Shown here in pieces: positions 10,089-40,844 of a DNA stretch of 64,000 bases. How positions within the stretch are numbered: the first letter of the stretch is position 1; each line of letters begins with the position of its first letter. Under the pieces are notes generated by a model. That model had not been told where the DNA came from, ran no database searches, and saw only the letters and a list, made by a program, of their open reading frames with translations. A program made the position numbers and the translations under genes. The DNA comes from Giardia intestinalis (Eukaryota): assembly GCA_000002435.2 (NCBI GenBank), contig CM018790.1; one strand, given 5' to 3'.

Positions 10089-11708
10089 ATGACTGCTGAA
10101 CTGTTGCAGCTCAAAAACCAATTCTACGATCTTGCCAAGGAACTCCTCGGTCAACTCGATCCTTCAGAAGCTCAAGAAAAGACATCAGCGGCAAACACCT
10201 ACCATGTGGAAGGCACGTTCGCGGGGTTCTTAAGCAAAAATATCCTGGAGCAATGCGAGCGCCGCCTGCCTCACGCATCTAGACCCGTCTGTTTGGATTC
10301 TTCACAGAGTCAACGGGATCATACATTAGCAATGGCCGCACTGTTAATTCCTATCTATAATTTAATAGCTAAGTATCACTTAACGCAGGTAATGAGTTGT
10401 GCAAGCAGGCGTCTTGTCACAACCATTGACGACACAGCGTTTCCTGTAAGGACTCTCAGTGGCGCCTCTTTATCTATAGAAGACATCCTAACCGTGAAGA
10501 CCCCTAACGCGTGGCTAAATGACGAAGTAATCAATGCACAGGTGTCACTTATAAATGCTCGTTGCAAGGGGCTTTCAATTGCAAACACACACCTTTATAG
10601 CAAGGCTTTGTCCTCAGGACCATACGGGCTAGAGGCCTGGCTCCGTCCTCTTCTATCCCAGCCAATAGAAACCTTTGTTATACCAATGAATCTAAACAAC
10701 ACACACTGGACAGCATGCTCTATACATCTTCAAGGGCATTTTGTTTTCTGCTTTGATTCTATGCGTGCCATTAACACACGCACAATCAAACCAGTTCTCC
10801 TGCTTCTGTTAACTTACGCAGATATGTTTGGATTGACCAGGGATGTCATACATAGGAGCTTAGTAGTTTTGTTCCCGGGGTTCGCACGCACATTCATAGA
10901 GATAGATGAGGAGGAGCATATACTTGAAGAGCTAGCTAGTATTGAGAAACAACGTGCCAATATTGCATTACTTTCACAGAGCGTCGGAGAAAACATAGAT
11001 ACAATATCAATTTCGTCCACAGGATCAGATGCAGAGCTTAGTTCGGTGCAGGCTGTACTCACTTCATCTGCCAACACAGATACCAGGCCCAAACGAATCT
11101 TCGAGAAGCTTGCACTTCAGCGTCCACGATCGTCGTACTACTTGTTGCACAGGATGAGGCTTAGTATGTGTGGTATATCCAATTCCACGGACAGTACCGG
11201 GCTCCTCTCCAGACCAACGATTGACACTAAAGAGCAGGATGATCTAATAGCTACCAGGGGAGCCCCTACATCTCCCGCAGCTGCAAACATAGTTCTGGAG
11301 ATCTTATCTACCCTTACTGCATGCACAGCAGACATTGAAGTCGCAGGGCAAAGGCTTCACGATGAGGGGCTTGACACTCTTTTGGATTCCCCTTCAAGTG
11401 ATCTCCTGTTTGTAGATGTGAAGACAGCAGAGATAGCTTTGCACAAGCTGCGTAGAGAATACAACATTGGGAGCCTGCTTACTTCTGCTGCAGAAGCAGT
11501 AATGCTTTCACTGAATATGCCTCAGCAAGAAAATGGGTATGATTGCGGAGTCTATATGCTGTTATTTATGAAGATGATTGCACGTCAGTTTGGACCTGGC
11601 TATCCACTTGTGGCCCAGGACACCAAGAGAGTAAGGTCCCTTATAACTATGGAGGTGTGTAAGCAAAAGCTACTGATCACCCCGCAAGATCTGGACGAGC
11701 TCTGCTAG
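10089..11708 (+). CDS. Ulp1/SENP-type SUMO-specific cysteine protease (peptidase C48) with a long insertion between the catalytic His/Asp and Gln/Cys.
   Basis: WLNDEVINAQV motif. Catalytic His in NNTHWTACSIH (aa 206), Asp in CFDSM (aa 223), and oxyanion Gln plus catalytic Cys in PQQENGYDCGVYML (Cys at aa 486). The ~260-aa Ser/acidic-rich spacer between Asp and Cys is unusual; the canonical spacing is about 50 aa. Confidence 0.75.
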   Translation: MTAELLQLKNQFYDLAKELLGQLDPSEAQEKTSAANTYHVEGTFAGFLSKNILEQCERRLPHASRPVCLDSSQSQRDHTLAMAALLIPIYNLIAKYHLTQVMSCASRRLVTTIDDTAFPVRTLSGASLSIEDILTVKTPNAWLNDEVINAQVSLINARCKGLSIANTHLYSKALSSGPYGLEAWLRPLLSQPIETFVIPMNLNNTHWTACSIHLQGHFVFCFDSMRAINTRTIKPVLLLLLTYADMFGLTRDVIHRSLVVLFPGFARTFIEIDEEEHILEELASIEKQRANIALLSQSVGENIDTISISSTGSDAELSSVQAVLTSSANTDTRPKRIFEKLALQRPRSSYYLLHRMRLSMCGISNSTDSTGLLSRPTIDTKEQDDLIATRGAPTSPAAANIVLEILSTLTACTADIEVAGQRLHDEGLDTLLDSPSSDLLFVDVKTAEIALHKLRREYNIGSLLTSAAEAVMLSLNMPQQENGYDCGVYMLLFMKMIARQFGPGYPLVAQDTKRVRSLITMEVCKQKLLITPQDLDELC

Positions 11709-19434: not shown

Positions 19435-19730
19435 AGGTGGTCGTCTCCAGAGTTTTTCCAGAAGTGACGTCCTCATATGATGGCATTGAGATTTAACAGT
19501 CAAGCAATCTTGCCGAGCAATCTTGTCTAGGTAACAATGAGAGAGCGGGAGACTGTCTCAAGTGCGCCCACTTTTCAAGACCATTTACAGCACTTGTGAT
19601 AATTACAGCTAAAATGGGCTGAAGCAGCGCTGTCTAATTACAGAATAAACGTCTCCGTCTTTTAATCTTGAGGTACCAGCTCGCAATTAATTTCGCAAAT
19701 CACGCGGGAATCTGTGTCAAGCCAGGATCT

Positions 19731-22700
19731 ATGGCACTGGCGCGCTTTCCACAGCACTATAGATTTATTGGACTTGCCAACATTGGCGGAGATGAGCTTA
19801 TCTATAAATTGCTTGACGAGACTACCGAGCAAGAGGTCTTCTGCACAATCTTCACTTTCGATCAGCTGCGCAAGAGGGCTTATACAGAGCTTCTTTCCTT
19901 TATACAAATATACACCGCACTGGATCACAGAGGCTTGATGCGCTATCGGGCCATTGAAACAGAGCCGGCAGATTTGAGGCTTTTCTTCATGACAAGTACA
20001 TACAATGTGAATCTTGCCAAGCTAAACTTACTAATGCGTCAGGAAGGAAAATCCTATTGCGAACTGGCACTCTGGCAAGTAGCTGCCCAATTGATTGACA
20101 CCATGACCTATTGCAATCTTCCGCGAACCCGTCAGTTTGGCCACAAAAGCACCCGCCTTGCAGCAAATTCCTTTCCTCATTGTGTCCTACGGCCATTTAT
20201 CATTGTAATAACAAATTCATTCACCCAAGAGTCAGACCTATTAAAGCTATCTACCAATTCAAAGCAGGCCGCCTTGTTTCCTCTCTCGATCAAGGTCATG
20301 CCTGGTGTCCTCACTGTGGGCCAACTGCGTCAGTTTCAAACAACTGCTGCTAGATCGCACCTTTCGCACATGGCCCCCGAGCTTCTCCTTGACTCCGAGG
20401 AGGTGAGTCCCTCTGGAGCAGTCGACATCTGGTCTGTAGGATCAGTTTTGTATGAAATGGCCACAGGGAAAACTTACGACTCTGCTATTGACCCAACGAC
20501 CAATCTTAGGACATACTCCTTTGAATTTCAAAGTATGCTCCGATCAATGCTATCCATAAAGCAATCTGACAGACCAACTTTTGAGGACCTGCTGAAAGCT
20601 GAGAGAATACGCTGCGTACTATCCGACATACAAACAGGTTCCCAGGGTCCTGCATCGAGCCAACCGGACAAACTGATTCTCCAGTCAGTTGAGCTGCAGG
20701 CACGTGAGCTTCTCGCAAAGCTTCCATATTCTACCGCTGAGCAGGCACAAATGGTAGCAAGTTGGCAACAAGAACTTCCTCATGAGCCAAATTACCTACT
20801 AGGAGTAATGAATATGATCGATGATGGGTCCTATCGCTGTCACACTCCCACTGGGAACAGGTTTGTGCACACTAGTTCCAGCGCTTCCCAGTCTCTCCGA
20901 TCAAGAGTAGCCCAGACTCCTGCATCAATTCATACGGGAAAGAATACCCGTTATGGAAGAAAGATGGCAAAAAGCCCGGCCGGGGTGCAGGACTCCTACA
21001 CGCAGCTTATGCAGCACGCTCTGAAAGATAATCTACTGAAGGCTAAAAAGGCTATGGACCAGGTGTGTATAGTTTTCACAGACGGGACGTCTGCCCTAAT
21101 GCTTGCAGCTGAAAATAATTCTCTTGAAGTTGCAAAGCTCTTGGTATCATATGAGTGCTGCCTACAGTCCAAAACCGGGCTCACTGCTCTAATGTATGCA
21201 GCAAGAAGAGGCCATGCAGATCTGGTGTCTCTCCTTCTCAACCACGAAAGCATGATGGTGGACTCTCGTGGCTACACGGCACTTATGCACGCTATAGACC
21301 AGGGTCACCTAGAGTGCATCCGAATCCTTGTAAAAGCAGAAACAAATTATAGTGCTCCGAATGGCATTACGGCGGGACTGCTTGCTACGAAGGACATAAA
21401 TGACGTCATGAAGCAGTTTAGGTGCCACTCGGCGTCCCAAATGACGTCTGCTAGCACCTATGGGACTCCTGACGGTAGGCAAACACCCAGCACAAGAAGA
21501 TCTGTGACACCCAGCAACAACTCCAGCCTTAGTATAAGCACTAGACATCAAACTGTCGCTGAGAAGCTTGCGATTGCTCAGATTGTCACTGCTCATGAGG
21601 ACACCCGTGACCCCGTAACACACGTGACATGCCTTATGCTAGCAGCCCAGCATCACTCTGTAGAATTGGTGCAAATGTTCATACACCAGGCTGGTTGCCA
21701 AACACCCAAAGGGCTTACGGCCCTCCATATTGCTGTTCAGGAACTGTTTGTTGACGGTGTTACGCTTCTAGCCCCTTGCGAGATGCGTTATACCACACAG
21801 TATGCTACCAACGGGTTTGGTTTCCATAGAGCGACGGCTCTTTGTCTCGCTGCTCTTGTAGGCGGATGCTCAGATAACAAAAATACGTCTCAGGGTCATC
21901 TCGTAAGTAGTCAGGGAGATCGGGGACCCTCTTCGTACAACTACTTTCGAAGCGTCAGCCAATACAGCTTCAATCACGCCTTGTCTGCAAGAAGCACTAC
22001 TAAGAGCAACCGAGATAACGAGCGGGCCATCCTCTCTATTCTAAATCTCCTAGTCCCACTCGAGGCCACCTATGCGGAGCCTGGCACAGGGAAAACTGCC
22101 CTTATTGCAGCAGCGACTGTCGGTAACGCACTCGCTGTCCGAGCACTGGCAAAGCACGAGGGTGGCTGCAAGATGATAAAGGGCTGGACAGCGATGATGT
22201 GTTGTGTCTGCCGGGCAAGCTCCACAACAGCGCAAAACCTGTGCACATACATCGAGTGCATAAACGCTCTAGCCCCATATGAACAAGGTATGACGTCTGA
22301 ATGTGGGTGGACGGCTCTTGTCTATGCCAGTGCCTACCTGAACCTTGCGTGTATAGAGGTGCTGGCGCCCTTAGAAGCAGCGCTGTCAGGAGAGACGGCG
22401 CTGAGCTTTATGGGTGCTCTCGTGGCTGAGGGTGAGATGACCAAAAGCGAGTGGCAGTATTCTATGTCCCAGGCAAGATCCTTGATAGTAGAGTACCTAA
22501 GATCACACTCTCTTACTGGTTTGCCGCCGCAGCAGCAACTATCCATAGGAGAGCTTCCTGACGATCGGGATATGAAGAAATACATTAACAATAAGTCCGG
22601 CCTCTTTGACGACGAGAGCGAAATCTCCATTCTTGAAGGAAAGTATTTCCGCTGGGAGGGGCCACCAGACTCTAGCATTGCCGGAGAGCCCATGCATGGG

Positions 22701-22985
22701 GGTGCACGGGCAAGCTCAGGGCTTCATCCACAGCGCCAGAGCCAGGTGAAGAAGGAGGTCTTGCCGGATGTGTCAGCTGTCGTCGACAAGAGTTTTGCAC
22801 GCGAGCAGAAAAGCTTTCAATGCCAGACCTCTGTTGCTATTCCAGAGCAAGAGAAATCATATAGGTATACATTCAATTCTAAGCCTCTTCCACCTCTTAT
22901 CACTGCCTCCCCATCCGCCGGGGATCATCTTCCAATTCTCCCGCCCCTGAATTCTCATAAAAATTCTCATAAAATCCGCAATTAA
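19731..22985 (+). CDS. NEK-like pseudokinase fused to ankyrin repeats (Protein 21.1/NEK family).
   Basis: The track start at 19668 is TTG; the first ATG is 19731 (MALARFPQHYRFIGLANIGGDELIYKLL, a degenerate Gly-loop). Kinase C-lobe HMAPELLLDSEEVSPSGAVDIWSVGSVLYEMATGKTYD. No HRD or DFG, so probably catalytically inactive. Then ankyrin repeats GTSALMLAAENNSLEVAKLLVSYE, GLTALMYAARRGHADLVSLLLNHE, GYTALMHAIDQGHLECIRILV, GKTALIAAATVGNALAVRAL. Confidence 0.75.
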   Translation: MALARFPQHYRFIGLANIGGDELIYKLLDETTEQEVFCTIFTFDQLRKRAYTELLSFIQIYTALDHRGLMRYRAIETEPADLRLFFMTSTYNVNLAKLNLLMRQEGKSYCELALWQVAAQLIDTMTYCNLPRTRQFGHKSTRLAANSFPHCVLRPFIIVITNSFTQESDLLKLSTNSKQAALFPLSIKVMPGVLTVGQLRQFQTTAARSHLSHMAPELLLDSEEVSPSGAVDIWSVGSVLYEMATGKTYDSAIDPTTNLRTYSFEFQSMLRSMLSIKQSDRPTFEDLLKAERIRCVLSDIQTGSQGPASSQPDKLILQSVELQARELLAKLPYSTAEQAQMVASWQQELPHEPNYLLGVMNMIDDGSYRCHTPTGNRFVHTSSSASQSLRSRVAQTPASIHTGKNTRYGRKMAKSPAGVQDSYTQLMQHALKDNLLKAKKAMDQVCIVFTDGTSALMLAAENNSLEVAKLLVSYECCLQSKTGLTALMYAARRGHADLVSLLLNHESMMVDSRGYTALMHAIDQGHLECIRILVKAETNYSAPNGITAGLLATKDINDVMKQFRCHSASQMTSASTYGTPDGRQTPSTRRSVTPSNNSSLSISTRHQTVAEKLAIAQIVTAHEDTRDPVTHVTCLMLAAQHHSVELVQMFIHQAGCQTPKGLTALHIAVQELFVDGVTLLAPCEMRYTTQYATNGFGFHRATALCLAALVGGCSDNKNTSQGHLVSSQGDRGPSSYNYFRSVSQYSFNHALSARSTTKSNRDNERAILSILNLLVPLEATYAEPGTGKTALIAAATVGNALAVRALAKHEGGCKMIKGWTAMMCCVCRASSTTAQNLCTYIECINALAPYEQGMTSECGWTALVYASAYLNLACIEVLAPLEAALSGETALSFMGALVAEGEMTKSEWQYSMSQARSLIVEYLRSHSLTGLPPQQQLSIGELPDDRDMKKYINNKSGLFDDESEISILEGKYFRWEGPPDSSIAGEPMHGGARASSGLHPQRQSQVKKEVLPDVSAVVDKSFAREQKSFQCQTSVAIPEQEKSYRYTFNSKPLPPLITASPSAGDHLPILPPLNSHKNSHKIRN

Positions 22986-23010
22986 ACATTGGCAAAGACG
23001 TTGGCCTCCA

Positions 23011-23241
23011 ATGCTCCTTAAAGTTCAGTTGACGACAGGCTACATTCTCACGCTCGATGTAGCACCGACAGAGACGATACTCGACATAAAGAATAAGGTG
23101 TATGACCAGGAGGGAATACATCCTGCCCAGCAGAAAATGTTATACTTGGCCCAGCAGCTACAGAACACTACCACCGTCGAGGAGGCCAACCTCAAGGCAG
23201 GAATCACTATCCAGTTAGTCGTTAACCTGAGGGGAGGCTAG
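23011..23241 (+). CDS. Ubiquitin-like modifier (76 aa, beta-grasp fold, free C-terminal LRGG); NEDD8/Rub1-like rather than ubiquitin.
   Basis: MLLKVQLTTGYILTLDVAPTETILDIKNKVYDQEGIHPAQQKMLYLAQQLQNTTTVEEANLKAGITIQLVVNLRGG aligns across its full length with ubiquitin (about 35% identity; conserved TG, PxxTI, KxKxxDxEGIxPxQQ and LRGG), and the stop codon follows GG directly. The K48-equivalent position is Gln. Only 25 bp separate it from the upstream gene. Confidence 0.75.
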   Translation: MLLKVQLTTGYILTLDVAPTETILDIKNKVYDQEGIHPAQQKMLYLAQQLQNTTTVEEANLKAGITIQLVVNLRGG

Positions 23242-23314
23242 TGGTAGAGACAATGAAGGGGTCGTGAATCTACGTTTACTACTGATCTTGCTCGCCACTT
23301 TGCCCTACACCACT

Positions 23315-24745
23315 TCACTTCTCGAACCTCTCCGTGTCCATTCCTGTTAGCCCATATTCATCATCTTGCTCTGCGGTTCTTTGGTAGTGTTCAACCTTAA
23401 GGGCAGGGTCATCATCAGGCGCGTAGACGTTCTTGATGAAAGAGGCGTCAAGGGGATCGTCTATGATGATAGTGAACCCTCGCTTGCCATCCGCCATTTC
23501 TTGCAGCCCCACAAGCAGCGAGCTCCACCGCTCCCGTTGTTCTGCGGACGAGCTGCCATCACCCAGCCAGAAGACACTATGCCTTTTCAGCTCGTCGTAC
23601 ATTATGCGGAGCAGACCCTCCAACGTCGTATACACGCCGCCTAGCGTTCCTGGCTCCAATCTGAGGCCGAGCTCTGGAATCTCGAGGGAGCAGCTATCTG
23701 ACTTCAGGACGTCTCTACTCAAGTCTCCGCTGTCTCCGTCCTCAATGGCCGTGCATGTAAATGTTGTACGAGCGCCATGTGGCGGGATTGCGCCCGCAGA
23801 CTTCACTTCTATGGATTTGAACCCACAATTGTCGCAGGCGCTGCACATTAAGAGGCACTCCTTGAAATAGGGTATGCTGATGAGGAGCGATTTGTTCAGT
23901 ATCTCCTCGCTACAGGCAGGGCACTTTGTCGGTAACGCCATCACTGGCATGTCCTCCGGAGCTGTGTCCAAAAGTAGCGTAACATCCTCGAGCTTACGCT
24001 CATCAACTCGTGAGACCCCAGAGCCCGCAGCTTGCCGCTGAATCACCTGCTCCTGTTCCGGACTTATTCCCAGTAGCTGTGCCTCTTCCTTGGTGCGCTG
24101 GAAGCGCCGGACGGTTAGGTTTCTGTCCAGATCACCTGTCTGGCGACCAACGAGCGGCTCAATGTAGGAATTACCAGAGGGATCTCGAAGAACCAGAGTG
24201 CATTGAGTCTTCAGCTGAAGCACGTTATTGATCTTCAAGATCACATCGTCTATCTTATCCGCGGCCTCAGGGGCCTTAAGACGACGCTCCGGCTGCAGAG
24301 CAAGCAAGTTTGTCGCTATTTGCTGGAGAGCGCCCTCTACTGTCGTGTAGAGACCCGACATGGGCCGCGGCTCCTGCTCTATCCCCAGCTCCCGAAGGGC
24401 TAGAGATGCCGTGGAAGACTTGATTACTCCTCGGCTAAGATCCTCCTCGGCTTGGATCACTAAGGTAACCTCGACGCCCCTATCTTGGATGTCTGCTGCT
24501 TGTTGGACGTCACGGCCTTTAAAACCGCAGTGCCTACATCTGAAACTCGAGACTATGCATTGCTGAAACTTGGGTATGTCGACAAAGAGAAGCTTGGTCT
24601 TTCCCATCCTATTACAGTGCATGCAAAGACTAGCCGTTACGTGCTGCTCTCCGATGTCCACCTGCACACGGGATCCGAATTCTGTCTCCGCATCGGACGA
24701 GGACGAGGATGAAGCGCTCGAGGATTGAGAGGCCGACCTAGACAT
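23315..24745 (-). CDS. ZPR1: ZPR1-type zinc-finger protein (two ZPR1 modules).
   Basis: Two CxxC-(~25)-CxxCGF zinc-finger units, each containing the ZPR1 IPxFxxC core: CMHCNRMGKTKLLFVDIPKFQQCIVSSFRCRHCGF and CPACSEEILNKSLLISIPYFKECLLMCSACDNCGF. Each is followed by an A/B-domain-like region. The ~476-aa length is typical of ZPR1. Confidence 0.75.
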   Translation of the reverse strand: MSRSASQSSSASSSSSSDAETEFGSRVQVDIGEQHVTASLCMHCNRMGKTKLLFVDIPKFQQCIVSSFRCRHCGFKGRDVQQAADIQDRGVEVTLVIQAEEDLSRGVIKSSTASLALRELGIEQEPRPMSGLYTTVEGALQQIATNLLALQPERRLKAPEAADKIDDVILKINNVLQLKTQCTLVLRDPSGNSYIEPLVGRQTGDLDRNLTVRRFQRTKEEAQLLGISPEQEQVIQRQAAGSGVSRVDERKLEDVTLLLDTAPEDMPVMALPTKCPACSEEILNKSLLISIPYFKECLLMCSACDNCGFKSIEVKSAGAIPPHGARTTFTCTAIEDGDSGDLSRDVLKSDSCSLEIPELGLRLEPGTLGGVYTTLEGLLRIMYDELKRHSVFWLGDGSSSAEQRERWSSLLVGLQEMADGKRGFTIIIDDPLDASFIKNVYAPDDDPALKVEHYQRTAEQDDEYGLTGMDTERFEK

Positions 24746-24767: not shown

Positions 24768-26249
24768 CTAGGCACCTATTTTAGCGAAGAGGCGAGCGTT
24801 TGGTGTGCATCCTGCACTCTCGAGTGTAGCAGATACGTCTTGCATAATGTCATCTCCAAAAGGTCTGTGTAAACGAATTCTTCCACAATCGATATTCAAA
24901 GCGTCTCCAATCCGTTCAATCATGGACTCGATTGTGTACGAAAACGGGAGCTTTAGTAGCAGGTGGTGATCATTGAGCGCCGAATCGGGGCTTGACACCC
25001 GTATCCTCAGCGTCGCGACTCTGCCATCATCTGCTGTTTCTGTAACGATTGTGGTCGACGACAGATTGTCCTTGCCGGCTTCCTTCGCCTGCTCAGCGGG
25101 GGTCTTCCCGTGCACAAGAAGCCCCAGTGCCTCCTTCATAGGGACGATTTGGCCGTTGCTTACACAAGTTCCTTTCACTCGCGACAGGAATTGCTGTAGA
25201 GACATCGGCTTCTCCAGATTGGCCCGTTGATCAAGTAATTGGTCGTACGAGTAATTATGCCTGTTGCCGTATTCTGATACCGTCAAGTAGCTACGTTTGA
25301 CGCTCCCGTGCTCTGCCGCCGCCTCAATAGTGCTCTTGGCCGGCTTTGGAGGAGGGGGCGGCTGCGCAGACTCATCAATCATGAGCTTCGCCTGTCCCTC
25401 AAATAATTCCACACCACAGGACTTGAAGGGCTCTGCCTCAAATGAGGCGTCAATTGAAATGCCGTCGGGATGCGAGGCCCGAAACTCGGAGGGGAGAAAC
25501 CCAGCTGCGATATCCTCTACGAACTCCTTCGCAGTCTTGTCGTGCTCATAAGCTCTGAATGGCCCCCTCTTGATGAAGATGCCATTGGGGTAGAAGCGCA
25601 CAGGAATTGAAGGCTTGTCACCATACCGGCCCTGATTGCCTCCGTCTGCCACCAGAACTCGATCCTTCGAAACAAGCTGATTAAGCTTTCTGATGTTGTC
25701 CTCGAGGATGTGTCTTTCCGGGGGCTCCCAGGTCTCTGTAGAATCCCCTATGTGATCGAGCTGTAGCGTATGCTGCACAGCACGGGGTGCAGGCTCTTTT
25801 GATGAGTCAGTATCCTCCACATAAATGAGGCCGTGCGAATCCAGGAACAACTCCATGTCATAAATTTGCTGCCTGAGAACCTCAATGTAATCCTTCAGAG
25901 CCATGATCTCGTCTACGTTGGCCTGCTCCCCCGCTGCCGCAAGTCTGCAAAGGTCTACCTTTTGCCGCAGAGAAGTGTTTTCATCGTTGGCCCGTCTGAG
26001 CATCAACTTCAATTGCTGGTTTTCAGCCTCCACTTTTGTAAGGCGGTTAGCGAGACTAGAAACCAGATCCTGCGCACCATTCTTGGGCATCAAAGGCTTG
26101 GCAGCAGCGCTCTTCACCACCTGTCCAGAAGGCCTATCCCCACGAAGGGCCTGTCGCAGTTGCTTTAGGTCATACTGATCCTGCTTGTCCAGCTGTGCGC
26201 GCACCGGCTTGGGGAGCTCCGTACGATACTTCTGGTGACCCTCCTCCAT
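24768..26249 (-). CDS. p47/Shp1-like p97(Cdc48) cofactor: coiled coil + SEP domain + C-terminal UBX domain.
   Basis: SEP-like block VRFYPNGIFIKRGPFRAYEHDKTAKEFVEDIAAGFLPSEFRASHPDGISID. C-terminal UBX-like block ATLRIRVSSPDSALNDHHLLLKLPFSYTIESMIERIGD...RLHRPFGDDIMQDVSATLESAGCTPNARLF. The track start at 26300 is GTG, so I moved the start to the ATG (MEEGHQKY) at 26249. Confidence 0.6.
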   Translation of the reverse strand: MEEGHQKYRTELPKPVRAQLDKQDQYDLKQLRQALRGDRPSGQVVKSAAAKPLMPKNGAQDLVSSLANRLTKVEAENQQLKLMLRRANDENTSLRQKVDLCRLAAAGEQANVDEIMALKDYIEVLRQQIYDMELFLDSHGLIYVEDTDSSKEPAPRAVQHTLQLDHIGDSTETWEPPERHILEDNIRKLNQLVSKDRVLVADGGNQGRYGDKPSIPVRFYPNGIFIKRGPFRAYEHDKTAKEFVEDIAAGFLPSEFRASHPDGISIDASFEAEPFKSCGVELFEGQAKLMIDESAQPPPPPKPAKSTIEAAAEHGSVKRSYLTVSEYGNRHNYSYDQLLDQRANLEKPMSLQQFLSRVKGTCVSNGQIVPMKEALGLLVHGKTPAEQAKEAGKDNLSSTTIVTETADDGRVATLRIRVSSPDSALNDHHLLLKLPFSYTIESMIERIGDALNIDCGRIRLHRPFGDDIMQDVSATLESAGCTPNARLFAKIGA

Positions 26250-26809
26250 GAAACCCTTTTTTGAAGCCGCTGGATCAGAGAAGAGATGAACATGTAGCAC
26301 GGTCAGGAATCAGAGCAACGCCTGCAGATGCATAAACTGGACGTCATAGTGTGGGTACCAATAGGTCGCCAAAAGATTCAAAAGGCGCCAGGCGACAGAA
26401 CCTTTGACTTGTTCAAAGGGATCAAGAACTGGCAACGCAGATCTGGCACACATATGTGACGTATAATGGTACATTGTTTGCAAAACAGTTAAAACTTTTT
26501 TCATGGTGATTGGTTCTTTAGCTTGTGGATTAATCAAGGAAAAGCAGAAACACATCAGTCATCAGCCAAGCACCTGAGCAAATTAGATAGATATGCTTCT
26601 AGATCCCAGAGATTATGTGTGCGATAAATCCATCAGCTCGGATCTTCACCGAACAGCGCCCTTTCTCCGTCACGCTAGAGTCTTAACCTAAAACGTGCCA
26701 AAATCGCGTTGGATTTTGAGGACCTGTTTCTTGAAGTCATGTAATTTTTGATGGTTCCGCTTATTTTCTTGGCTGAAGGAAAAACAAAATAAAAGTGTGT
26801 TAAGGCATT

Positions 26810-34880: not shown

Positions 34881-36887
34881 TCATATGGATTGCAACCCGC
34901 ACAGCTTAAGTGTCTCTACGGGATATACCAAGTGAAAGTCGTGTCCACCAACAGATCTGAAGACTATATTGATTCTAGGGCAGTACTTTTCAAACTGCTC
35001 TTTAGCTTTAGCACACTGAATGATTGCATCGTCGTTTGCTAATACTAGGACTGTTTCTAAATCGAGGTCGTCAAGCCTGGTAAAGTATTCCTTCCCAGAA
35101 GTCCAGGGGAATGCTGCTGAGCTGTTGATGGCCTGCTTTATAGCGCTGGTGCAGCGACTTCGAACATGCGACTCATATTTTCGCTTGACGTTTGCCTGTA
35201 GAGGCTCTGGGAGGTACTTAACCCGGTCAGCACAATCCAAAAACGTCTTGAGGGCAAGCGTTGGATATACAGACATGAGAGGCTGAGTTATACGCGCCAG
35301 GATGGGGTGATCACGCATAAAAATCAGCTTTCGGTTCAGCTCCATCACCATACCGACGGGAGCTAGCAGCACCACCTTGTCAACGATATCTTTCAAGATC
35401 GGGGCCATGGCTGCAGCCATTAGGCCTCCGCTAGAATGCCCCACTAAGGTTATCTTTTGCTGAGAAGAGGTTGAGTTGATCAGTTTGTATGTTCTCACTG
35501 GGTAACGGACCGTTGTCGCTGTCGCTGCAGCAGAAGGCCCTGAGGGATTGTTTTCGTCCTGCGGATTCAGCTCTGCCGGAGGTTGAACTGGTGAACCCGG
35601 AGGCTCATCAAGTATCTCGAATCCATGTATCCAGTTAAGCACTGGCAGAGAAAGGACCTCTAAGCAATACCTTATTAGAGTGTCTATGTCATAGGAGTCT
35701 CCTGGTGTTCCGTCACTTCCTCCTGTTGCTGGCCAGTCGAACGTGAGAACTTCATGCGTCATTGCAAGGGCATTGATGAAGGGAGCATTAATCGTTGTGT
35801 CGAAGTCGAAACCATGCAAAAAGAGCACTCTCGGGTATTGTTCCGTCGAGGGGTCCACTGTTATGCTATCGATTTGATTCTGCTCCTTCAGTGCTTTGTC
35901 GACAGCATCGCACACGGGGTTATCCAATGCTTCACCTGTATCCTTTGGTGTGCTTGCGTCTGTCTTGGGGACTGTGGATACAGGTGGGGTTTCAAGGCTT
36001 TCGTCTTGGTATCCAGCGTTGCGGTTAGGATTATCTGCAGAAACGTCCACTAGAGACACTCTTCCGTTATCGGCTGTGTTCTTTAGTATATATGCGCTGT
36101 GCACGGTACCAGCCCGTGGATGTGAATAGTATATTTTGCACATCCCAAGCGCAGGAAGTTTGCATGCTTGTATCTTTGTTGGGTTGAGCTCCAGCCATTC
36201 CAGTGGATATTTAATCAAGAGATCCGTGGAAGCGGGGAGACGCTCGAGTGGCGGTGGGTCGACCAGCCTGTCTACCGTATCCGTGTCAAAGAACGAGACT
36301 GCACGCATGTCTGGGTTGTTCAGGTAAATGTCTTCCTTCATGCTTTCGGTGAGGATCTTTCCTGGATCGTCGATGGGAGTTGCTGTAAATACGGGGTATT
36401 TGGGCAGTTTTAATGCAGAAGCAGGATCAGCAACAGGATCGTCAAGTCTTGAAACTGTCTCGAGGTATGGCCTTAGAGGTATACTAACTGGTGGCGGGTA
36501 TGCTCCCGGGGAGCGACCACTGACTCCTCTGTCATTGGGAGAGGATTCAAGAACTAGTGGTGTCTCAAAATGCTGTAGACTCTCTATCTCAGATATATCT
36601 CTAGACTGTTCCGGCACATAATCTGCTTCCTTCGCCTCATGGGCAGGGCTGGGCTGCCCTTCGGGAGAGTTTATAGCATTCATAGCTTGGGAGACCTCTT
36701 GCTGGACCTTATCTGCCATGGCCTCGGGGCTAGTAACGCCCAGAGTGACCTCTCCAGCAGGTGAAATAGTGACTTGCTCTGCAAGAGAAGCCTTCTCAGC
36801 GTCCGTGAGCTCGGTGGTAAAGACTACCTCATGGTCACTGTTCGCATCGTTGCCCGCGGGACTTGTTGGATCGCCAGACGGTGTCAT
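34881..36887 (-). CDS. Alpha/beta-hydrolase fold protein (paralog 1 of 3), with a ~340-aa disordered P/S-rich N-terminal extension.
   Basis: C-terminal half: RVLFLHGFDFDTT...EVLTFDWPATGGSDG...ITLVGHSSGGLMAAAMAP (GHSxG nucleophile elbow)...LLAPVGM. Collinear with the hydrolases at 38272 and 40845. Confidence 0.65.
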   Translation of the reverse strand: MTPSGDPTSPAGNDANSDHEVVFTTELTDAEKASLAEQVTISPAGEVTLGVTSPEAMADKVQQEVSQAMNAINSPEGQPSPAHEAKEADYVPEQSRDISEIESLQHFETPLVLESSPNDRGVSGRSPGAYPPPVSIPLRPYLETVSRLDDPVADPASALKLPKYPVFTATPIDDPGKILTESMKEDIYLNNPDMRAVSFFDTDTVDRLVDPPPLERLPASTDLLIKYPLEWLELNPTKIQACKLPALGMCKIYYSHPRAGTVHSAYILKNTADNGRVSLVDVSADNPNRNAGYQDESLETPPVSTVPKTDASTPKDTGEALDNPVCDAVDKALKEQNQIDSITVDPSTEQYPRVLFLHGFDFDTTINAPFINALAMTHEVLTFDWPATGGSDGTPGDSYDIDTLIRYCLEVLSLPVLNWIHGFEILDEPPGSPVQPPAELNPQDENNPSGPSAAATATTVRYPVRTYKLINSTSSQQKITLVGHSSGGLMAAAMAPILKDIVDKVVLLAPVGMVMELNRKLIFMRDHPILARITQPLMSVYPTLALKTFLDCADRVKYLPEPLQANVKRKYESHVRSRCTSAIKQAINSSAAFPWTSGKEYFTRLDDLDLETVLVLANDDAIIQCAKAKEQFEKYCPRINIVFRSVGGHDFHLVYPVETLKLCGLQSI

Positions 36888-36980
36888 TATTTTTTCCTAG
36901 AATGCGAATTCGTACTATAAACCCTGCGAAACTACTAATGTACGAACCCTACAAAGAGAGCTCCGCGGTGATAAAATAAA

Positions 36981-38192
36981 TCACCCTTGCTCAATTATAC
37001 CTAAGACTTCCCGCAACTGAGACTCAGTTCTGCAGAGCACATTTAGATCAATGTCGCGAACCGTTTCGTCAATGTTCAGAACTGACCGGATCTGAGCGAA
37101 GACCTTAGCTCGTCTTTCATTAGAGTAGCTCATGAGATAAGCTGCACAGTTGAAAAGACGCATGTTGCGTTCGCGAACAGGGTCTTTACTGGTATCGTAG
37201 ACCTTTGAGCGGAAAGTGCTGGACAGCCCTGCATCTGACAATGAGTGCTGAGCCTGCGAGATGCTCGGAGCAGCAGTGATAGTATTGCCTTTTTGTTGCG
37301 ACGAGGCAGACCTCGCGCGTTTCTGTACTGGCTGAGTTTCTTTCAATGCTGAGGTGGTCAGTGTAGAACTGTTCATGGGGGTTAAGGCTCCAGACGCGGG
37401 TCTAAACTCATTGAGTGTGGATGGAAGGTCAAAGGTCACCTTCTTGCTTGCGGAGCATCCGGACCCAGGGTCATCCACGGCATTCAAAGGAAAAGATGCA
37501 GGATCAGCCTCTTTATTAAAAGAGCTAGTGCTGTTGGGACAAGCAGAAGTGGATAAGCGCGAGCCGGACCTTAGGGGTCTCGGGGTCTTACTCTTATTAT
37601 TAGGCTGAGTGTCCAGAGATCCAGAGGGATGAGGGGCAAAAAGGAGATCCAGGGCATCAGAGTCCGACTTCGGTACGGGCTTTCGTGCAACATGCTGCTT
37701 CATATTAACGGGGCACGCGAAATAACGCTCGACCTCAAGGAAGATATCATTAAAATGCTTAGCCTTTGCTGAGACTATCCTCCCTTCAAAGACGTTTGCT
37801 TGGAACACACGAATGATCTCGTTATAAAGTCGCCCCGTAGCCTCTATGATGGGTGTACAGTTTTTTGGACGGAGTGCCTGCTCTAGCGTGTACCCAGGTT
37901 TGATATTAAATCGAATGCTGTTATACGTGATCAGAAGAAAGTGGTAGCTGATCTGGCCTATCTCTGAGTAGTGACCGCCCTTCAGATTAGCCAGAATGTT
38001 TTTGAATGCACATGGGTCTTTGATATTGGTCCTATATGTTTGACAGAAACCCGCGTCATGCGCGTACGTCTCCAAGACAGGGGTCTTGAAAATGCTCGAC
38101 AGAACCTCGTTTTCAATAATATTAAGGAATGCGCCTTCCACTGTCTTCGTCAGAGGACCCTTCATCCACGCAATGAGGGGAGCAAGAGACAT
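36981..38192 (-). CDS. Hypothetical protein (403 aa), with a structured N-terminal half and a Ser/Pro-rich middle.
   Basis: ATG start confirmed. No recognisable catalytic motif. Confidence 0.45.
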   Translation of the reverse strand: MSLAPLIAWMKGPLTKTVEGAFLNIIENEVLSSIFKTPVLETYAHDAGFCQTYRTNIKDPCAFKNILANLKGGHYSEIGQISYHFLLITYNSIRFNIKPGYTLEQALRPKNCTPIIEATGRLYNEIIRVFQANVFEGRIVSAKAKHFNDIFLEVERYFACPVNMKQHVARKPVPKSDSDALDLLFAPHPSGSLDTQPNNKSKTPRPLRSGSRLSTSACPNSTSSFNKEADPASFPLNAVDDPGSGCSASKKVTFDLPSTLNEFRPASGALTPMNSSTLTTSALKETQPVQKRARSASSQQKGNTITAAPSISQAQHSLSDAGLSSTFRSKVYDTSKDPVRERNMRLFNCAAYLMSYSNERRAKVFAQIRSVLNIDETVRDIDLNVLCRTESQLREVLGIIEQG

Positions 38193-38271
38193 CGGACTCC
38201 GAGAGCGATCCTTTTGCTTGCAAAAAGAATATGAAAAAGAATATGAAAACTGAAATCAGAAGACTAAAAAC

Positions 38272-39333
38272 ATGCACGCCCTTAACCAGGACTGCTTCAC
38301 CACGATTTCCGTGCCTTCGGTCGAAAAGTTGCGAGTCTTCCACTCCATCCCTCATGGCATAGACAACCCTCCGCGCCTTCTTTTCCTTCATGGTTACTCT
38401 TTCTTTACAGACCTCTACGCCACTCTGCTTAACGAACTTTGCACCCACTTCGAGGTCCTCGCGTTTGATTCTCCTGGTACTGGGGGCTCTGGTCCCATCT
38501 TCGACGGCGATTACACCGTCAACAGCCTCGTCGAGGTTGCTCTAGAACTATTGACTATTAGCCAGCTGAGATGGGTTCCCCGTGCGGCTTCGGTCCTGTA
38601 CAAGGCGAACATGAAGTACGACCCTGACAAAATGCTCGATTCGCAATCGGGGGAGGACAGGCAGCTAGCCGAATCATTGGTCGAGTCACTGGCCTTGAGC
38701 ACAGATAGGAAGAAGTTTACCATTGTTGGACACTCTATGGGCGCATTTCTAGCAGCAGAACTTACAGTAGCGTGCTGGAACTGCGTGGAAGCCGTCTATA
38801 TGGTAGCCCCAGCGGGGATCAAGTGCGAATTGAAGAACTTCTGGTCAGACCTCTGCGGCGGTGCTTTAGGAATATTCAGGAGAGCATATGCGAAGCTGCG
38901 CCATAAGCAGACCATAGAGAAATGGGTGGCTATTCAACAAGACAGTCTGGCACAGGGGCGCTCTGTGACACATGCCGAGCAGATGCAAAGAGATTTCTCT
39001 GAGGCGTATTTGGCTAACTCAAAAGCAGCCGTTTCTCGCTTTTGCTGCCTGGTGGACTTCCCGTGGTCTAACGGGCATGACGTGTTTAGAGAATTGGAAT
39101 CTATAATAGAGAAGAAGGGGTTGAACGCTTACTGCTATCTAATGGAGCAAGACGAGATAATATCGTACAAGGATGTCAGTGCCTTCTTCAGAGACATCAT
39201 GCCCAATTGCCGTCTGCACACCGTTTCGGCCGCCAATCATGACTGGGTGAACGACCACCCCCATCTACTGGTTCATAACATAATTAACGACCGGGCTCAT
39301 CTGACTGCGGCTACGTCTAGTGTCGAGATCTAA
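38272..39333 (+). CDS. Alpha/beta-hydrolase fold protein (paralog 2 of 3; ABHD-like).
   Basis: RLLFLHGYSFFTD...EVLAFDSPGTGGSGP...FTIVGHSMGAFLAAEL...MVAPAGIK...FPWSNGHDVFRELE. Same motif order as the paralogs at 40845 and 34881. Confidence 0.65.
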   Translation: MHALNQDCFTTISVPSVEKLRVFHSIPHGIDNPPRLLFLHGYSFFTDLYATLLNELCTHFEVLAFDSPGTGGSGPIFDGDYTVNSLVEVALELLTISQLRWVPRAASVLYKANMKYDPDKMLDSQSGEDRQLAESLVESLALSTDRKKFTIVGHSMGAFLAAELTVACWNCVEAVYMVAPAGIKCELKNFWSDLCGGALGIFRRAYAKLRHKQTIEKWVAIQQDSLAQGRSVTHAEQMQRDFSEAYLANSKAAVSRFCCLVDFPWSNGHDVFRELESIIEKKGLNAYCYLMEQDEIISYKDVSAFFRDIMPNCRLHTVSAANHDWVNDHPHLLVHNIINDRAHLTAATSSVEI

Positions 39334-40729
39334 CTGTATAAAATATTCCGTTATTGGGGTCACATCCCCAAAATTGCATGCCAGGAACATCTTTTATGGT
39401 CTCTTCAATTGCGCTCACGTATGCGTTCTGCTCGTGTTGCCCAGGTAGTTCGGTCTGTGTAGCAAGGAACATATCTCTTTTATTTAGGAAGCCGTCGACT
39501 TCCAGACCAAATAGCCCTATCTTGACCGTGCTAGTGCCATGCTCTTTGCTGAGATCTATGTAGCCTGGCCAGAAGAGACGGCCGTATCCATTTCCAAGCA
39601 CTAGGTTCCGAAGACGTTTGGGCTTCTCTGACTGCGCCTCAGAGCTGTAAACTTTTATAGATTTAGTGGCGGCTATTGTGCCTCCAGACTCATCAGCGGA
39701 ATGCAATCTAGTCTCCAACGGTGGAGCGCTGAACTTCACTGCAAACTGCTTAAGGTTCTTTTCATGCTTCTGCTGCATACGCTCAAGGTGCATTTGCTTC
39801 CGTGTTTGTCTATCTGCTTGGCGACGAAGCTTCCGTTGCTCCCTTCGTTCTGCTTTAGCCTTTCTCTTTTCAGCAATCATCCTTTCTTGATCCTCCCGAT
39901 CTTGCTGCATCTTAGTTAAATGAGTTTCTAACTTCATTTGGTTTTCCTGCACGCAGTAGTTATTGCCGTCGGCGAAAGATGACAGTTGCTGGGCAGTGTC
40001 GGAAGTAATATCATCGTGGTCAGACGCGTCTGATGAGGAGCAAGTGAGAGGCGGAAACTCGTACACGCGTGCTTGAATGCTATCCAGGGAGCAGACTGAG
40101 GCATTGTGCTGCCGAATTTCCTCCATGTAAGAGCTAATATGAAGATCAAACTCGCACGATGTCAGCGGAGTAAGCTGATAAGGCGGGAGCACCTGAGTTT
40201 GCCCTGTAGGCATGTCCCATGAGGGAGGCGCTAGTATCTCTGGCTTTTCTAACGACAGATTGCAAGCGTCGCTATAGCCGAAGTTATGAGGATAAACCGA
40301 GTTATAAGAAGGTTGGTAGATATTCGTGCAAGAGATGGGTGGCTGCTGATAGAATGATTCAGGGTTGACAGGCTGGGGAAAGACCTCCTGAGGGGCGTAA
40401 TTATATAGTACTTGCTGATGTGGCTGGCTAGAAAACTGTGATGGAAACGGATAAACAGGGTCTGTGACAACGTTCTGTGGTTGTGAATAGGGCTGCTGCG
40501 GCCCGGAGCTGTGCATAGGTTGCGGTGGCTGAGAAAAGCCAAAAACTGACGGGGATGTGTGTGCTTGCATGGGCGGGTCTTCGTCAAGCAAGAGTGGCGG
40601 ATCATCATCGGATCGCGGAAGCCGCGGAGCACCTGGAGGAGCCAGCTGACGAGCAAACGAGACTGGGGTGCTCTGCAGCGCCTGAGGGTCAAGCTGTGGC
40701 GGAGAGGTAACACCGCTTGCCGAGTACAT
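39317..40729 (-). CDS. Hypothetical Pro/Gln-rich protein with a basic coiled-coil segment. Its 3' end overlaps the convergent hydrolase gene by 17 nt.
   Basis: The track start at 40741 is GTG; the first ATG is 40729 (MYSASGVTSPPQLDPQ). P/Q-rich N-terminal half, then KRKAKAERREQRKLRRQADRQTRKQ, then a ~110-aa C-terminal domain of unknown type. Confidence 0.45.
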   Translation of the reverse strand: MYSASGVTSPPQLDPQALQSTPVSFARQLAPPGAPRLPRSDDDPPLLLDEDPPMQAHTSPSVFGFSQPPQPMHSSGPQQPYSQPQNVVTDPVYPFPSQFSSQPHQQVLYNYAPQEVFPQPVNPESFYQQPPISCTNIYQPSYNSVYPHNFGYSDACNLSLEKPEILAPPSWDMPTGQTQVLPPYQLTPLTSCEFDLHISSYMEEIRQHNASVCSLDSIQARVYEFPPLTCSSSDASDHDDITSDTAQQLSSFADGNNYCVQENQMKLETHLTKMQQDREDQERMIAEKRKAKAERREQRKLRRQADRQTRKQMHLERMQQKHEKNLKQFAVKFSAPPLETRLHSADESGGTIAATKSIKVYSSEAQSEKPKRLRNLVLGNGYGRLFWPGYIDLSKEHGTSTVKIGLFGLEVDGFLNKRDMFLATQTELPGQHEQNAYVSAIEETIKDVPGMQFWGCDPNNGIFYTVRSRH

Positions 40730-40844
40730 GGGCGTTGGCACCGGTTTCTGGGCCCTTCTTTCTCAGTAGATATCTGTTGCAAAAATTGAAAAACGCCGTT
40801 ATAACGTTTCAAGTCCATTTGGCACCAATAAGTTGAGACAAAAA

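What the first reader, a model, noticed from the sequence alone, without database searches (positions are those of the whole stretch)
23011..23241. Stand-alone 76-aa ubiquitin-like modifier ending exactly in LRGG
It has the full beta-grasp architecture (about 35% identity to ubiquitin) with a mature di-Gly C-terminus encoded directly, so no processing is needed. The K48-equivalent position is Gln. It is not a ubiquitin-ribosomal fusion and not polyubiquitin. The sequence alone does not show which Ubl it represents; the candidates are NEDD8/Rub1 or a lineage-specific Ubl. It lies 25 bp downstream of a NEK/ankyrin gene and convergent with ZPR1.
Basis: partly seen in the sequence, partly recalled or inferred. 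Interest (0 to 1): 0.5.

Follow-up and report, generated by a model that had tools for sequence, protein, structure and literature searches.

The report
Giardia's divergent NEDD8-like ubiquitin relative
This is a real, expressed and very tightly conserved 76-residue ubiquitin-type protein tag of the gut parasite Giardia; it is not the parasite's true ubiquitin, although databases call it that, and it is most likely a strongly diverged counterpart of NEDD8 working in a cell that has none of NEDD8's usual targets, the cullins.

Summary
Window 23011..23241 (+) is a stand-alone 76-codon ORF ending LRGG-stop, with Gln at position 48. It lies 25 bp after a NEK/ankyrin kinase gene and is convergent with ZPR1.

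The window is Giardia intestinalis. The protein is identical to XP_001705938.1/A8BNL2, annotated "Ubiquitin", and by inference is GL50803_8843.

It is not the canonical ubiquitin, which is GL50803_7110 (82 aa, about 140-fold more transcript, not in this window). This protein lacks K6, K11, K33, K48 and K63, and also R72, L8 and H68.

I found orthologues in assemblages B and E, in G. muris (same gene order) and in four further unnamed assemblies. Between assemblages A and B there are 35 synonymous and 0 non-synonymous changes. N72, Q68, A63-G64, Y45 and RGG are invariant.

Sequence similarity to ubiquitin and NEDD8 is nearly tied (39% vs 37% identity). The family profile leans slightly towards RUB1/NEDD8. 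A non-basic residue 72 is the NEDD8-type feature that decides which activating enzyme (E1) accepts the protein.

My best reading is a diverged NEDD8/Rub1-like mono-modifier that uses Giardia's reported UBA3-like E1 and UBC12-like E2 on non-cullin targets. A published inventory appears to have swapped the Ub and NEDD8 labels. The gene itself is already annotated, so interest is moderate.

The parts
23011..23241 (+). Complete coding sequence (76 codons plus TAG) of the ubiquitin-family modifier. It is identical to G. intestinalis XP_001705938.1/A8BNL2 and is inferred to be GL50803_8843.
   Evidence: ORF and frame. (PF00240, E=1e-15). (exact match to the Giardia protein). (purifying selection).
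23224..23226 (+). Codon AAC = Asn72, at the E1 'gating' position (Arg in ubiquitin, Ala in NEDD8). It is invariant in all family members found.
   Evidence: sequence. (invariant column N72). (PMC3731359: the Ub E1 strictly needs Arg72; the NEDD8 E1 rejects basic residues but accepts uncharged ones).
23227..23238 (+). Codons for L73-R74-G75-G76, the conjugation tail, followed directly by the stop at 23239-23241. No C-terminal propeptide has to be removed.
   Evidence: R74, G75 and G76 are invariant in the family. One distant member carries one extra residue, GGN.
23152..23154 (+). Codon CAG = Gln48, the K48-equivalent position. Together with Q6, Y11, Q33 and A63 it removes five of ubiquitin's seven chain-forming lysines.
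   Evidence: ungapped alignment to ubiquitin. (family columns).
22986..23010 (+). 25-bp spacer between the stop of the NEK/ankyrin kinase gene and the ATG. Any promoter or initiator must lie here or inside the kinase 3' coding end. An AT-rich AATTAAAC sits at 22980-22987 across the kinase stop codon. Its promoter role is inferred and was not tested.
   Evidence: In G. muris the spacer is only 2 bp and in L006 it is 5 bp.
23242..23314 (.). 73-bp spacer between the convergent stop codons of this gene and ZPR1. It must hold both 3' ends.

Best explanation
The ORF encodes a genuine ubiquitin-type protein modifier that is made already mature. It is specific to Giardia and a few related, still unnamed lineages, and it is distinct from the parasite's canonical ubiquitin.

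It is most likely the strongly diverged counterpart of NEDD8/Rub1. The inferred mechanism has four steps.
1. Asn72 in place of Arg72 keeps it off the ubiquitin E1. It is adenylated and thioester-linked through Gly76 by the UBA3-like E1 reported in Giardia (GL50803_4083).
2. It is passed to the UBC12-like E2 (GL50803_31576).
3. It is attached to lysines of targets, possibly with an Rbx-like RING protein (GL50803_8241).
4. Giardia is reported to have no cullins and no COP9 signalosome, so the targets must be non-cullin proteins.

Only K27 is an invariant lysine, so the protein probably acts as a single tag rather than forming chains.

Shown here: the ORF, its fold-family membership, its conservation and selection, the loss of ubiquitin's lysines and of Arg72, and that it is not the canonical ubiquitin gene. 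Inferred: which E1, E2 and E3 it uses, that it is conjugated at all, and its descent from NEDD8.
For: 1. It is a real, selected gene.
- It is an exact match to an annotated Giardia protein seen on 262 contigs.
- Assemblage A versus B shows 35 synonymous differences over 53 synonymous sites and 0 non-synonymous over 175 sites, while neighbouring ZPR1 is 93% identical.
- A G. muris orthologue is 74% identical in the same NEK-Ubl-ZPR1-SEP gene order.
- More distant members are 62% and 57% identical.
- GL50803_8843 is transcribed at 188.5 FPKM in trophozoites.

2. It looks conjugation-competent.
- RGG at 74-76 is invariant (position 73 is Leu or Met) and the alignment to Ub and NEDD8 is colinear and ungapped.
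- One member ends GGN, the propeptide type typical of conjugated Ubls.

3. It is not ubiquitin.
- K6, K11, K33, K48, K63, R72, L8 and H68 are all replaced.
- Giardia does make K48- and K63-linked chains, and the K48 linkage peptide has been seen by mass spectrometry.
- The accepted ubiquitin gene is GL50803_7110. It is 82 aa, is transcribed at 26,494 FPKM, and its published primers match nowhere in the window.

4. It leans towards NEDD8.
- The family profile scores Arabidopsis RUB1 at 73.3 bits, human NEDD8 at 66.4 and ubiquitin at 65.3.
- A small NEDD8 HMM beats a Ub HMM by 5 to 16 bits for every family member.
- NEDD8-type residues L2, K/R4, Y45 and G64 are conserved.
- Residue 72 is non-basic. 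[quoted passage not shown]

5. The cognate enzymes otherwise lack a partner. A UBA3-like E1, a UBC12-like E2 and Rbx-like proteins are reported and transcribed. The protein that the same paper calls 'NEDD8' is GL50803_7110, which is the ubiquitin.
Against: - Pairwise similarity does not favour NEDD8: 39% identity to Ub against 37% to NEDD8, and the six family members scatter on both sides.
- The profile lead of human NEDD8 over Ub is only about 1 bit.
- The HMM comparison is biased, because the NEDD8 model was built from more varied sequences, two of them recalled from memory.
- A three-group unrooted tree cannot place the family.
- Residue 72 is Asn rather than the Ala or Thr of known NEDD8/Rub1. 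The acidic E31-E32 of NEDD8 is absent, and L8, H68, P37 and G47, which both Ub and NEDD8 keep, are replaced.
- According to a review, all known NEDD8 proteins are made with a C-terminal extension. This one is not.
- The canonical NEDD8 targets (cullins) and the deneddylase complex (CSN) are reported absent.
- One review states that Giardia has no clear NEDD8 orthologue.
- I could not inspect the E1 and E2 sequences myself.
- No conjugates of this protein have been reported, and it was absent from the two proteomic supplements I searched.
Confidence: 0.5

Rival explanations
1. It is a lineage-specific ubiquitin paralogue: an old duplicate of the ubiquitin gene in the Giardia branch that evolved a new, private function. 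It would not be orthologous to NEDD8 and may use another E1, or be activated promiscuously.
For: It is equidistant from Ub and NEDD8. It shares T14, T22, I23, K29, D32 and T66 with ubiquitin. It has a private signature at L7-T/S8, Q68 and N72 that matches neither. The family was found only in Giardia and a few unnamed relatives, and not in Spironucleus or Hexamita within the reach of the word-based search. One review sees no clear NEDD8 orthologue in Giardia.
Against: It is no closer to Giardia's own ubiquitin (41%) than to human ubiquitin (39%), so nothing points to a recent duplication. This reading leaves the reported UBA3-like E1 and UBC12-like E2 without a modifier. The profile scores lean towards NEDD8/RUB1.
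Confidence: 0.33
2. It is Giardia's bona fide ubiquitin, as the database name says and as Table II of the 2020 gene inventory lists it (GL50803_8843 = 'Ub'; GL50803_7110 = 'NEDD8').
For: The source annotation is 'Ubiquitin'. The inventory lists 8843 as free Ub and describes Giardia Ub as unusually divergent, at 70% similarity.
Against: - It lacks K48, K63, K11, K6, K33 and R72, yet K48 and K63 chains and the K48 linkage peptide are found in Giardia.
- 7110 is treated as the single ubiquitin gene by the same laboratory in 2013 and by others.
- 7110 has 140 times more transcript: 26,494 against 188.5 FPKM.
- The inventory's 84% best hit of 7110 to 'Arabidopsis RUB1' is explained by that entry being a ubiquitin-NEDD8 fusion.
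Confidence: 0.03
3. It is a non-conjugated ubiquitin-like protein, a decaying gene copy, or the tail of a longer transcript fused to the kinase gene.
For: No conjugates have been reported. The gap to the upstream gene is only 25 bp.
Against: Purifying selection is extreme, with 0 non-synonymous against 35 synonymous changes. The RGG end is invariant. The frame differs from the kinase gene and an in-frame stop lies upstream. The separate ORF is kept in G. muris in a different frame from the kinase gene. The gene is transcribed.
Confidence: 0.04

Closest known systems
NEDD8 / Rub1 (human NEDD8, Arabidopsis RUB1, yeast Rub1)
   Same: It is 76 residues, colinear and ungapped, and ends in LRGG. Residue 72 is non-basic, the feature that separates NEDD8 from ubiquitin at the E1 step. 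L2, a basic residue at 4, Y45 and G64 are as in NEDD8. It is a low-abundance transcript next to a very abundant ubiquitin. It has no conserved chain-forming lysines. The best single-domain profile hit is Arabidopsis RUB1.
   Different: - It is only 37% identical to human NEDD8.
- Residue 72 is Asn, not Ala or Thr.
- E31-E32, L8, H68, P37 and G47 are replaced.
- It is made without the C-terminal extension that NEDD8 proteins carry.
- The organism is reported to lack cullins and the COP9 signalosome, so the defining function, cullin activation, cannot apply.
Canonical ubiquitin (in Giardia: GL50803_7110)
   Same: It has the same Pfam family, the same length, the same hydrophobic core pattern, and the K27, L/I44, V70 and LRGG features. 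Identity is 39%, the highest pairwise value.
   Different: - It lacks K6, K11, K33, K48, K63, R72, L8 and H68.
- It is not encoded as a fusion or with an extension.
- It has about 140-fold less transcript.
- It cannot make the K48 and K63 chains seen in Giardia.
Divergent ubiquitin moieties of Giardia Ub-S27a and Ub-L40
   Same: They are further cases of strongly diverged ubiquitin-fold sequences in the same organism.
   Different: Those are N-terminal domains of ribosomal proteins. The S27a moiety is reported not to be cleaved and has lost the GG junction. The present protein is free-standing with an intact, invariant RGG end.
Lineage-restricted ubiquitin-like modifiers of other parasites (for example the apicoplast PUBL of Toxoplasma)
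   Same: It is a ubiquitin-derived modifier confined to one protist lineage.
   Different: This protein has no targeting sequence or organelle link. PUBL is described as highly similar to ubiquitin, whereas this protein is only 39% identical.

Membership tests
Ubiquitin family (Pfam PF00240, beta-grasp modifiers) | Significant full-length match to the family profile | tested here: met
   PF00240 E=1e-15, 57.7 bits (cutoff 25.4), protein residues 4-74 on profile positions 2-72 of 72. The protein aligns without gaps to Ub and NEDD8 over all 76 residues. The AlphaFold model was too poor to add anything (pLDDT 54).
Ubiquitin family (Pfam PF00240, beta-grasp modifiers) | C-terminal Gly-Gly available for conjugation | tested here: met
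   LRGG is followed directly by the stop. R74, G75 and G76 are invariant in all family members found.
Canonical ubiquitin | Near-invariant sequence across eukaryotes | tested here: not met
   39% identity to human ubiquitin.
Canonical ubiquitin | Seven lysines (K6, K11, K27, K29, K33, K48, K63) for chain formation | tested here: not met
   The positions read Q6, Y11, K27, K29, Q33, Q48, A63. In the family only K27 is invariant.
Canonical ubiquitin | Arg72, required by the ubiquitin E1 | tested here: not met
   Asn72 is invariant in the family. The requirement for Arg72 is documented in PMC3731359.
Canonical ubiquitin | Encoded as polyubiquitin, a ribosomal fusion or a precursor, and very highly expressed | tested here: not met
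   The ORF is stand-alone with an in-frame upstream stop. Transcript level from the literature is 188.5 FPKM against 26,494 for GL50803_7110.
NEDD8 / Rub1 | Non-basic residue at position 72 (Ala, or Thr in yeast), giving selectivity for the NEDD8 E1 | tested here: met
   Residue 72 is Asn. It is uncharged and polar, like the Ser and Gln shown to be accepted by the NEDD8 E1. It is not the canonical Ala, so it is met in kind but not in letter.
NEDD8 / Rub1 | Closer in sequence or profile to NEDD8 orthologues than to ubiquitin | tested here: inconclusive
   Pairwise identity is 37% to NEDD8 against 39% to Ub. The family profile scores RUB1 73.3, NEDD8 66.4 and Ub 65.3 bits. The NEDD8 HMM leads by 5-16 bits but the models are biased. 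The tree is unresolved.
NEDD8 / Rub1 | Cognate E1 (UBA3 with its partner) and E2 (UBC12) present in the genome | not testable with these tools
   They are reported in the literature: GL50803_4083 is UBA3-like, at 31% identity to S. pombe UBA3 and with the canonical motifs, and GL50803_31576 is UBC12-like. No NAE1/APPBP1 partner is listed. The sequences could not be fetched here, and none lies in the window.
NEDD8 / Rub1 | Cullin substrates with a neddylation lysine, and CSN or DEN1 deneddylases | not testable with these tools
   The literature reports no cullin, Skp1, APC or CSN in Giardia. The only C48 protease in the window is of the SUMO-protease type. If this is correct, the feature is not met.
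NEDD8 / Rub1 | Synthesised with a C-terminal extension that must be removed | tested here: not met
   The stop follows GG directly in G. intestinalis, G. muris, L001, L006 and P0281. Only P0280 ends GGN. The general rule is stated in PMC3968751.
SUMO | Best match to SUMO-type profiles, a flexible N-terminal extension, and a QTGG-type end | tested here: not met
   Rad60-SLD matches at E=2.7e-6, far weaker than ubiquitin at 1e-15. There is no N-terminal extension and the end is LRGG.

The most novel reading that the evidence does not exclude
A NEDD8-derived conjugation pathway has survived in a eukaryote that has lost all cullins and the COP9 signalosome. It would be kept under extreme purifying selection solely by non-cullin targets. 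Giardia would then be a natural cullin-free background in which the long-debated cullin-independent functions of NEDD8 can be read directly.
Probability: 0.3. Interest if true: 0.65.

Novelty: new variant of a known kind. Interest (0 to 1): 0.4.

Why it matters
Whether Giardia has NEDD8 at all is contradictory in the literature. One review says there is no clear orthologue. One gene inventory names the abundant, canonical ubiquitin gene as NEDD8 and names this divergent protein as ubiquitin.

Sorting this out matters for anyone using Giardia ubiquitin reagents, diGly proteomics or E1 inhibitors. GG remnants from this protein would be counted as ubiquitination.

If the protein is the NEDD8 counterpart, it offers a rare natural test of what a NEDD8-type modifier does when there are no cullins to activate. 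If it is a private ubiquitin paralogue, it is a parasite-specific modifier with its own E1 selectivity, and so a conceivable drug target.

Either way the claim is modest. The gene is already annotated, and the fold and chemistry are of a familiar kind.

Tried and rejected
1. The exhaustive representative search with the single protein returned only polyubiquitin-like multi-domain proteins in its top 150. It was useless for finding the nearest single-domain relatives.
2. The first word-indexed search found only Giardia sequences. G. muris and two more distant members appeared only after I found L006 by synteny through ZPR1 and searched again with a four-sequence alignment.
3. AlphaFold2 on the five-row alignment that the tool allowed gave pLDDT 54 and a wrong-looking helical C-terminal half. 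I did not use it and ran no fold search.
4. Neighbour-joining with 500 bootstraps gave family monophyly in 500/500 replicates. With three groups on an unrooted tree, the NEDD8-or-Ub question cannot be answered this way.
5. Pairwise identities and BLOSUM scores for six family members against six references showed no consistent preference.
6. A scan of JGI metagenome contigs with family patterns found no relatives.
7. I searched the literature for a direct accession-to-gene-ID mapping and searched two proteomic supplements for GL50803_8843. Nothing turned up, so the assignment to GL50803_8843 stays an inference. It rests on an identical 39%/70% BLAST figure, on elimination among the seven ubiquitin-domain genes of the inventory, and on the mismatch to the 7110 primers and length.
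8. I asked whether the Ulp1-family protease 11 kb upstream could be a DEN1-type deneddylase. I rejected this because its best solved relatives are SENP5, Ulp1 and SENP1, which are SUMO proteases.
9. I looked for an E1, E2 or cullin in the window and found none.

Full report
**1. The observation**

Window 23011..23241 (+) is an ATG-initiated ORF of 76 codons ending GGA GGC TAG. It encodes MLLKVQLTTGYILTLDVAPTETILDIKNKVYDQEGIHPAQQKMLYLAQQLQNTTTVEEANLKAGITIQLVVNLRGG.

- An in-frame stop lies 20 codons upstream, with no ATG in between.
- The upstream 1105-codon ORF ends at 22985 in another frame. It carries Pkinase and ankyrin domains. The gap to the ATG is 25 bp.
- The downstream gene on the minus strand (23315..24745) is ZPR1 (jr-ZPR1 E=3e-71). 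Its stop lies 73 bp beyond this ORF's stop.
- Pfam places the protein in the ubiquitin family (PF00240, E=1e-15, nearly full profile length).
- It aligns without a gap to human ubiquitin (39% identity, 70% positives) and to human NEDD8 (37%).
- Position 48 is Gln.

Every factual element of the finding is correct. Only the estimated identity was a little low.

**2. Whose gene it is**

The exact sequence is in public collections as "Ubiquitin" of Giardia intestinalis/duodenalis (XP_001705938.1, A8BNL2_GIAIC and others), seen on 262 contigs. The window is therefore a Giardia intestinalis chromosome segment. This fits the many NEK/ankyrin genes and the tight gene packing.

A published inventory of Giardia Ub and Ubl genes lists seven ubiquitin-domain genes (PMC7029713). 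GL50803_8843 is given as "Ub" with a best hit to human ubiquitin at 39% identity and 70% similarity. Those are exactly the numbers I obtain for this ORF.

The other free-standing candidate is GL50803_7110, and it is excluded for two reasons.
- Its published qPCR primers match nowhere in the window, even with three mismatches allowed.
- Its product is 82 aa.

I therefore equate the ORF with GL50803_8843. This is an inference, because no accession-to-ID mapping could be found.

**3. It is not Giardia's ubiquitin**

- *Missing residues.* Five of ubiquitin's seven lysines are gone (Q6, Y11, Q33, Q48, A63). So are R72 (Asn), L8 (Thr) and H68 (Gln).
- *Chains exist in Giardia.* K48- and K63-linked chains have been detected, and the K48 linkage peptide was seen by mass spectrometry (PMC3684764). 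This protein cannot form them.
- *The accepted gene is another one.* The same paper and others treat GL50803_7110 as the single ubiquitin gene. It is among the most highly expressed genes in cysts and trophozoites.
- *Transcript levels.* In the inventory's own RNA-seq table, 7110 (labelled "NEDD8") has 26,494 FPKM, the highest value listed. 8843 (labelled "Ub") has 188.5.
- *The likely source of the error.* The inventory's reason for calling 7110 NEDD8 is an 84%-identical best hit to "Arabidopsis RUB1". Arabidopsis RUB1 is encoded as a ubiquitin-NEDD8 fusion (PMC3968751), so that hit is most simply explained by the ubiquitin half.

I conclude that the two labels in that table are swapped. The Redox Biology review's statement that Giardia lacks a clear NEDD8 orthologue fits this conclusion.

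**4. The family**

Starting from two hits, I used synteny through ZPR1 and then an alignment query. Together these recovered the following members.

| Source | Identity to the window protein | Note |
|---|---|---|
| Assemblage B | identical | same gene order |
| Assemblage E/P15 | one conservative change | same gene order |
| L001 | 89% over the full 76 aa (87% by BLAST to the truncated call) | the caller started it at an internal TTG; the 76-codon ATG ORF is intact |
| L006 | 76% | |
| G. muris A0A4Z1T973 | 74% | same NEK-Ubl-ZPR1-SEP order |
| P0280 | 62% | 77 aa, ends MRGGN; from a GC-rich unnamed organism, not syntenic |
| P0281 | 57% | on a 1-kb metagenomic contig |

Invariant positions across the family are M1, L2, Q6, L7, T9, G10, D16, T22, D25, K27, E34, G35, Q40, Q41, L44, Y45, L50, N52, T55, E57, E58, L61, A63, G64, T66, Q68, L69, V70, V71, N72, R74, G75 and G76.

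The only invariant lysine is K27. K4, K29, K42 and K62 each alternate with Arg.

Selection is extreme. Assemblage A versus B shows 35 synonymous differences over 53 synonymous sites and none over 175 non-synonymous sites, while the neighbouring ZPR1 is 93% identical. Against P15 the pN/pS ratio is 0.012.

**5. Ubiquitin-like or NEDD8-like?**

Pairwise measures do not decide.

The family profile searched against all solved structures ranks Arabidopsis RUB1 first among single domains (73.3 bits). Human NEDD8 follows at 66.4 bits and wild-type ubiquitin at 65.3.

A small NEDD8 HMM outscores a ubiquitin HMM for each of the six members by 5-16 bits. That comparison favours the more varied model, and two of the four NEDD8 sequences came from my memory.

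A distance tree shows the family as a separate long branch (500/500 bootstraps) and cannot place it.

At sites that distinguish the two proteins:
- the family shares L2, a basic residue at 4, Y45 and G64 with NEDD8;
- it shares T22, I23 and T66 with ubiquitin;
- it has private states at 7/8, 37, 47, 68 and 72.

The functionally best-understood site is 72. Published work shows that the ubiquitin E1 strictly requires Arg72. The NEDD8 E1 rejects Arg, Lys and His but tolerates Ala, Leu, Ser, Gln and others, and a crystal structure of NEDD8 A72Q bound to the E1 exists (PMC3731359). An invariant Asn72 therefore predicts exclusion from the ubiquitin E1 and compatibility with a NEDD8-type E1.

**6. 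Mechanism proposed**

Giardia is reported to encode and transcribe three relevant enzymes:
- a UBA3-like E1 (GL50803_4083, 39 FPKM);
- a UBC12-like E2 (GL50803_31576, 10 FPKM);
- Rbx-like RING proteins (GL50803_8241, 56 FPKM).

Once 7110 is recognised as ubiquitin, this ORF is the only remaining candidate modifier for them.

I therefore propose that the protein is made ready for use, with no propeptide. It would be activated through Gly76 by the UBA3-like E1, passed to the UBC12-like E2, and attached as a single tag, since no lysine suited to chain building is conserved.

Cullins, Skp1, APC and the COP9 signalosome are reported absent, so the targets must be non-cullin proteins. Loss of the cullin/CSN interaction network would also explain why the sequence has drifted so far from other NEDD8 proteins while staying frozen within Giardia.

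These steps are inferred. I could not inspect the enzymes, and no conjugates are on record.

**7. Rivals**

- *A lineage-specific ubiquitin paralogue unrelated to NEDD8.* This remains quite possible (about one in three). The private signature and the tie in similarity speak for it. The orphaned E1 and E2, and the lack of extra similarity to Giardia's own ubiquitin (41%), speak against it.
- *"True ubiquitin".* This is contradicted (section 3).
- *A pseudogene, a non-conjugated protein, or part of a fusion transcript.* These are contradicted by selection, the invariant RGG end, the frame and the transcript evidence.

**8. Novelty and score**

The gene is annotated and was listed in a 2020 inventory, so its existence is not new.

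What this analysis adds:
- the demonstration that it is not ubiquitin;
- the likely label swap in the literature;
- the definition of a conserved family reaching G. muris and beyond, with an invariant Asn72 and no chain lysines;
- the resulting picture of a NEDD8-type modifier in a cullin-less cell.

That makes it a new variant of a known kind, of moderate interest (0.4). It would be more interesting (about 0.65) if the cullin-independent NEDD8 reading is confirmed.

Noticed in passing
window 10089..11708 (+): A 539-aa protein with a Ulp1/SENP-type cysteine protease domain (Peptidase_C48, E=6.7e-16) lies 11 kb upstream of the Ubl. Its best solved relatives are SENP5, Ulp1 and SENP1, so it is a SUMO-type protease rather than a DEN1-type deneddylase. 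It is probably the GL50803_16438 'SENP5' of the inventory.
   Followed up: yes
window 24768..26300 (-): A SEP-domain protein (p47/Shp1-like cofactor type, E=1.9e-7) lies next to ZPR1. The order NEK kinase - Ubl - ZPR1 - SEP is kept in assemblages B and E and in G. muris (L002-L005, L010). In the unnamed organism of L007 the SEP and ZPR1 genes are still near each other, but the Ubl sits elsewhere (L009).
   Followed up: partly
Literature: PMC7029713 Table II and supplementary expression table: The labels 'Ub' (GL50803_8843) and 'NEDD8' (GL50803_7110) appear to be swapped. 7110 is the abundant, conserved ubiquitin (26,494 FPKM; 84% identical to the Arabidopsis Ub-RUB1 fusion entry). 8843 is the divergent protein of this window (188.5 FPKM).
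   Followed up: yes
L001 556..786 (+): In this Logan assembly the gene was called as a 70-aa product starting at an internal TTG (MPTGY...). The full 76-codon ATG ORF (MLLKVQLPTGY...) is intact, so this is a gene-calling artefact. Cluster member P0008 (112 aa, ...NLREASGRDNEG...) similarly looks like a one-base assembly error in the GG codons that causes read-through.
   Followed up: partly
L009 4039..4272 (+) and L007 (sample SRR31929897): An unnamed, GC-rich organism has a ZPR1 only 52% identical to Giardia's, about as distant as Dysnectes or Spironucleus. It still carries a 62%-identical member of this Ubl family, ending MRGGN. The family therefore probably reaches beyond the genus Giardia. 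The organism was not identified.
   Followed up: partly
window 19668..22985 (+): The mechanical ORF for the NEK/ankyrin kinase starts at a TTG and gives 1105 aa. Gene calls in other assemblages give 1080-1102 aa, so the true ATG start is probably somewhat downstream of 19668. The kinase-domain match is partial (profile positions 158-260 only), as in many Giardia NEK pseudokinase-like genes.
   Followed up: no
window 34881..41768: Three genes for alpha/beta-hydrolase-fold proteins (34881..36887 -, 38272..39333 +, 40833..41768 +) are clustered within 7 kb. They may be a local paralogue cluster.
   Followed up: no
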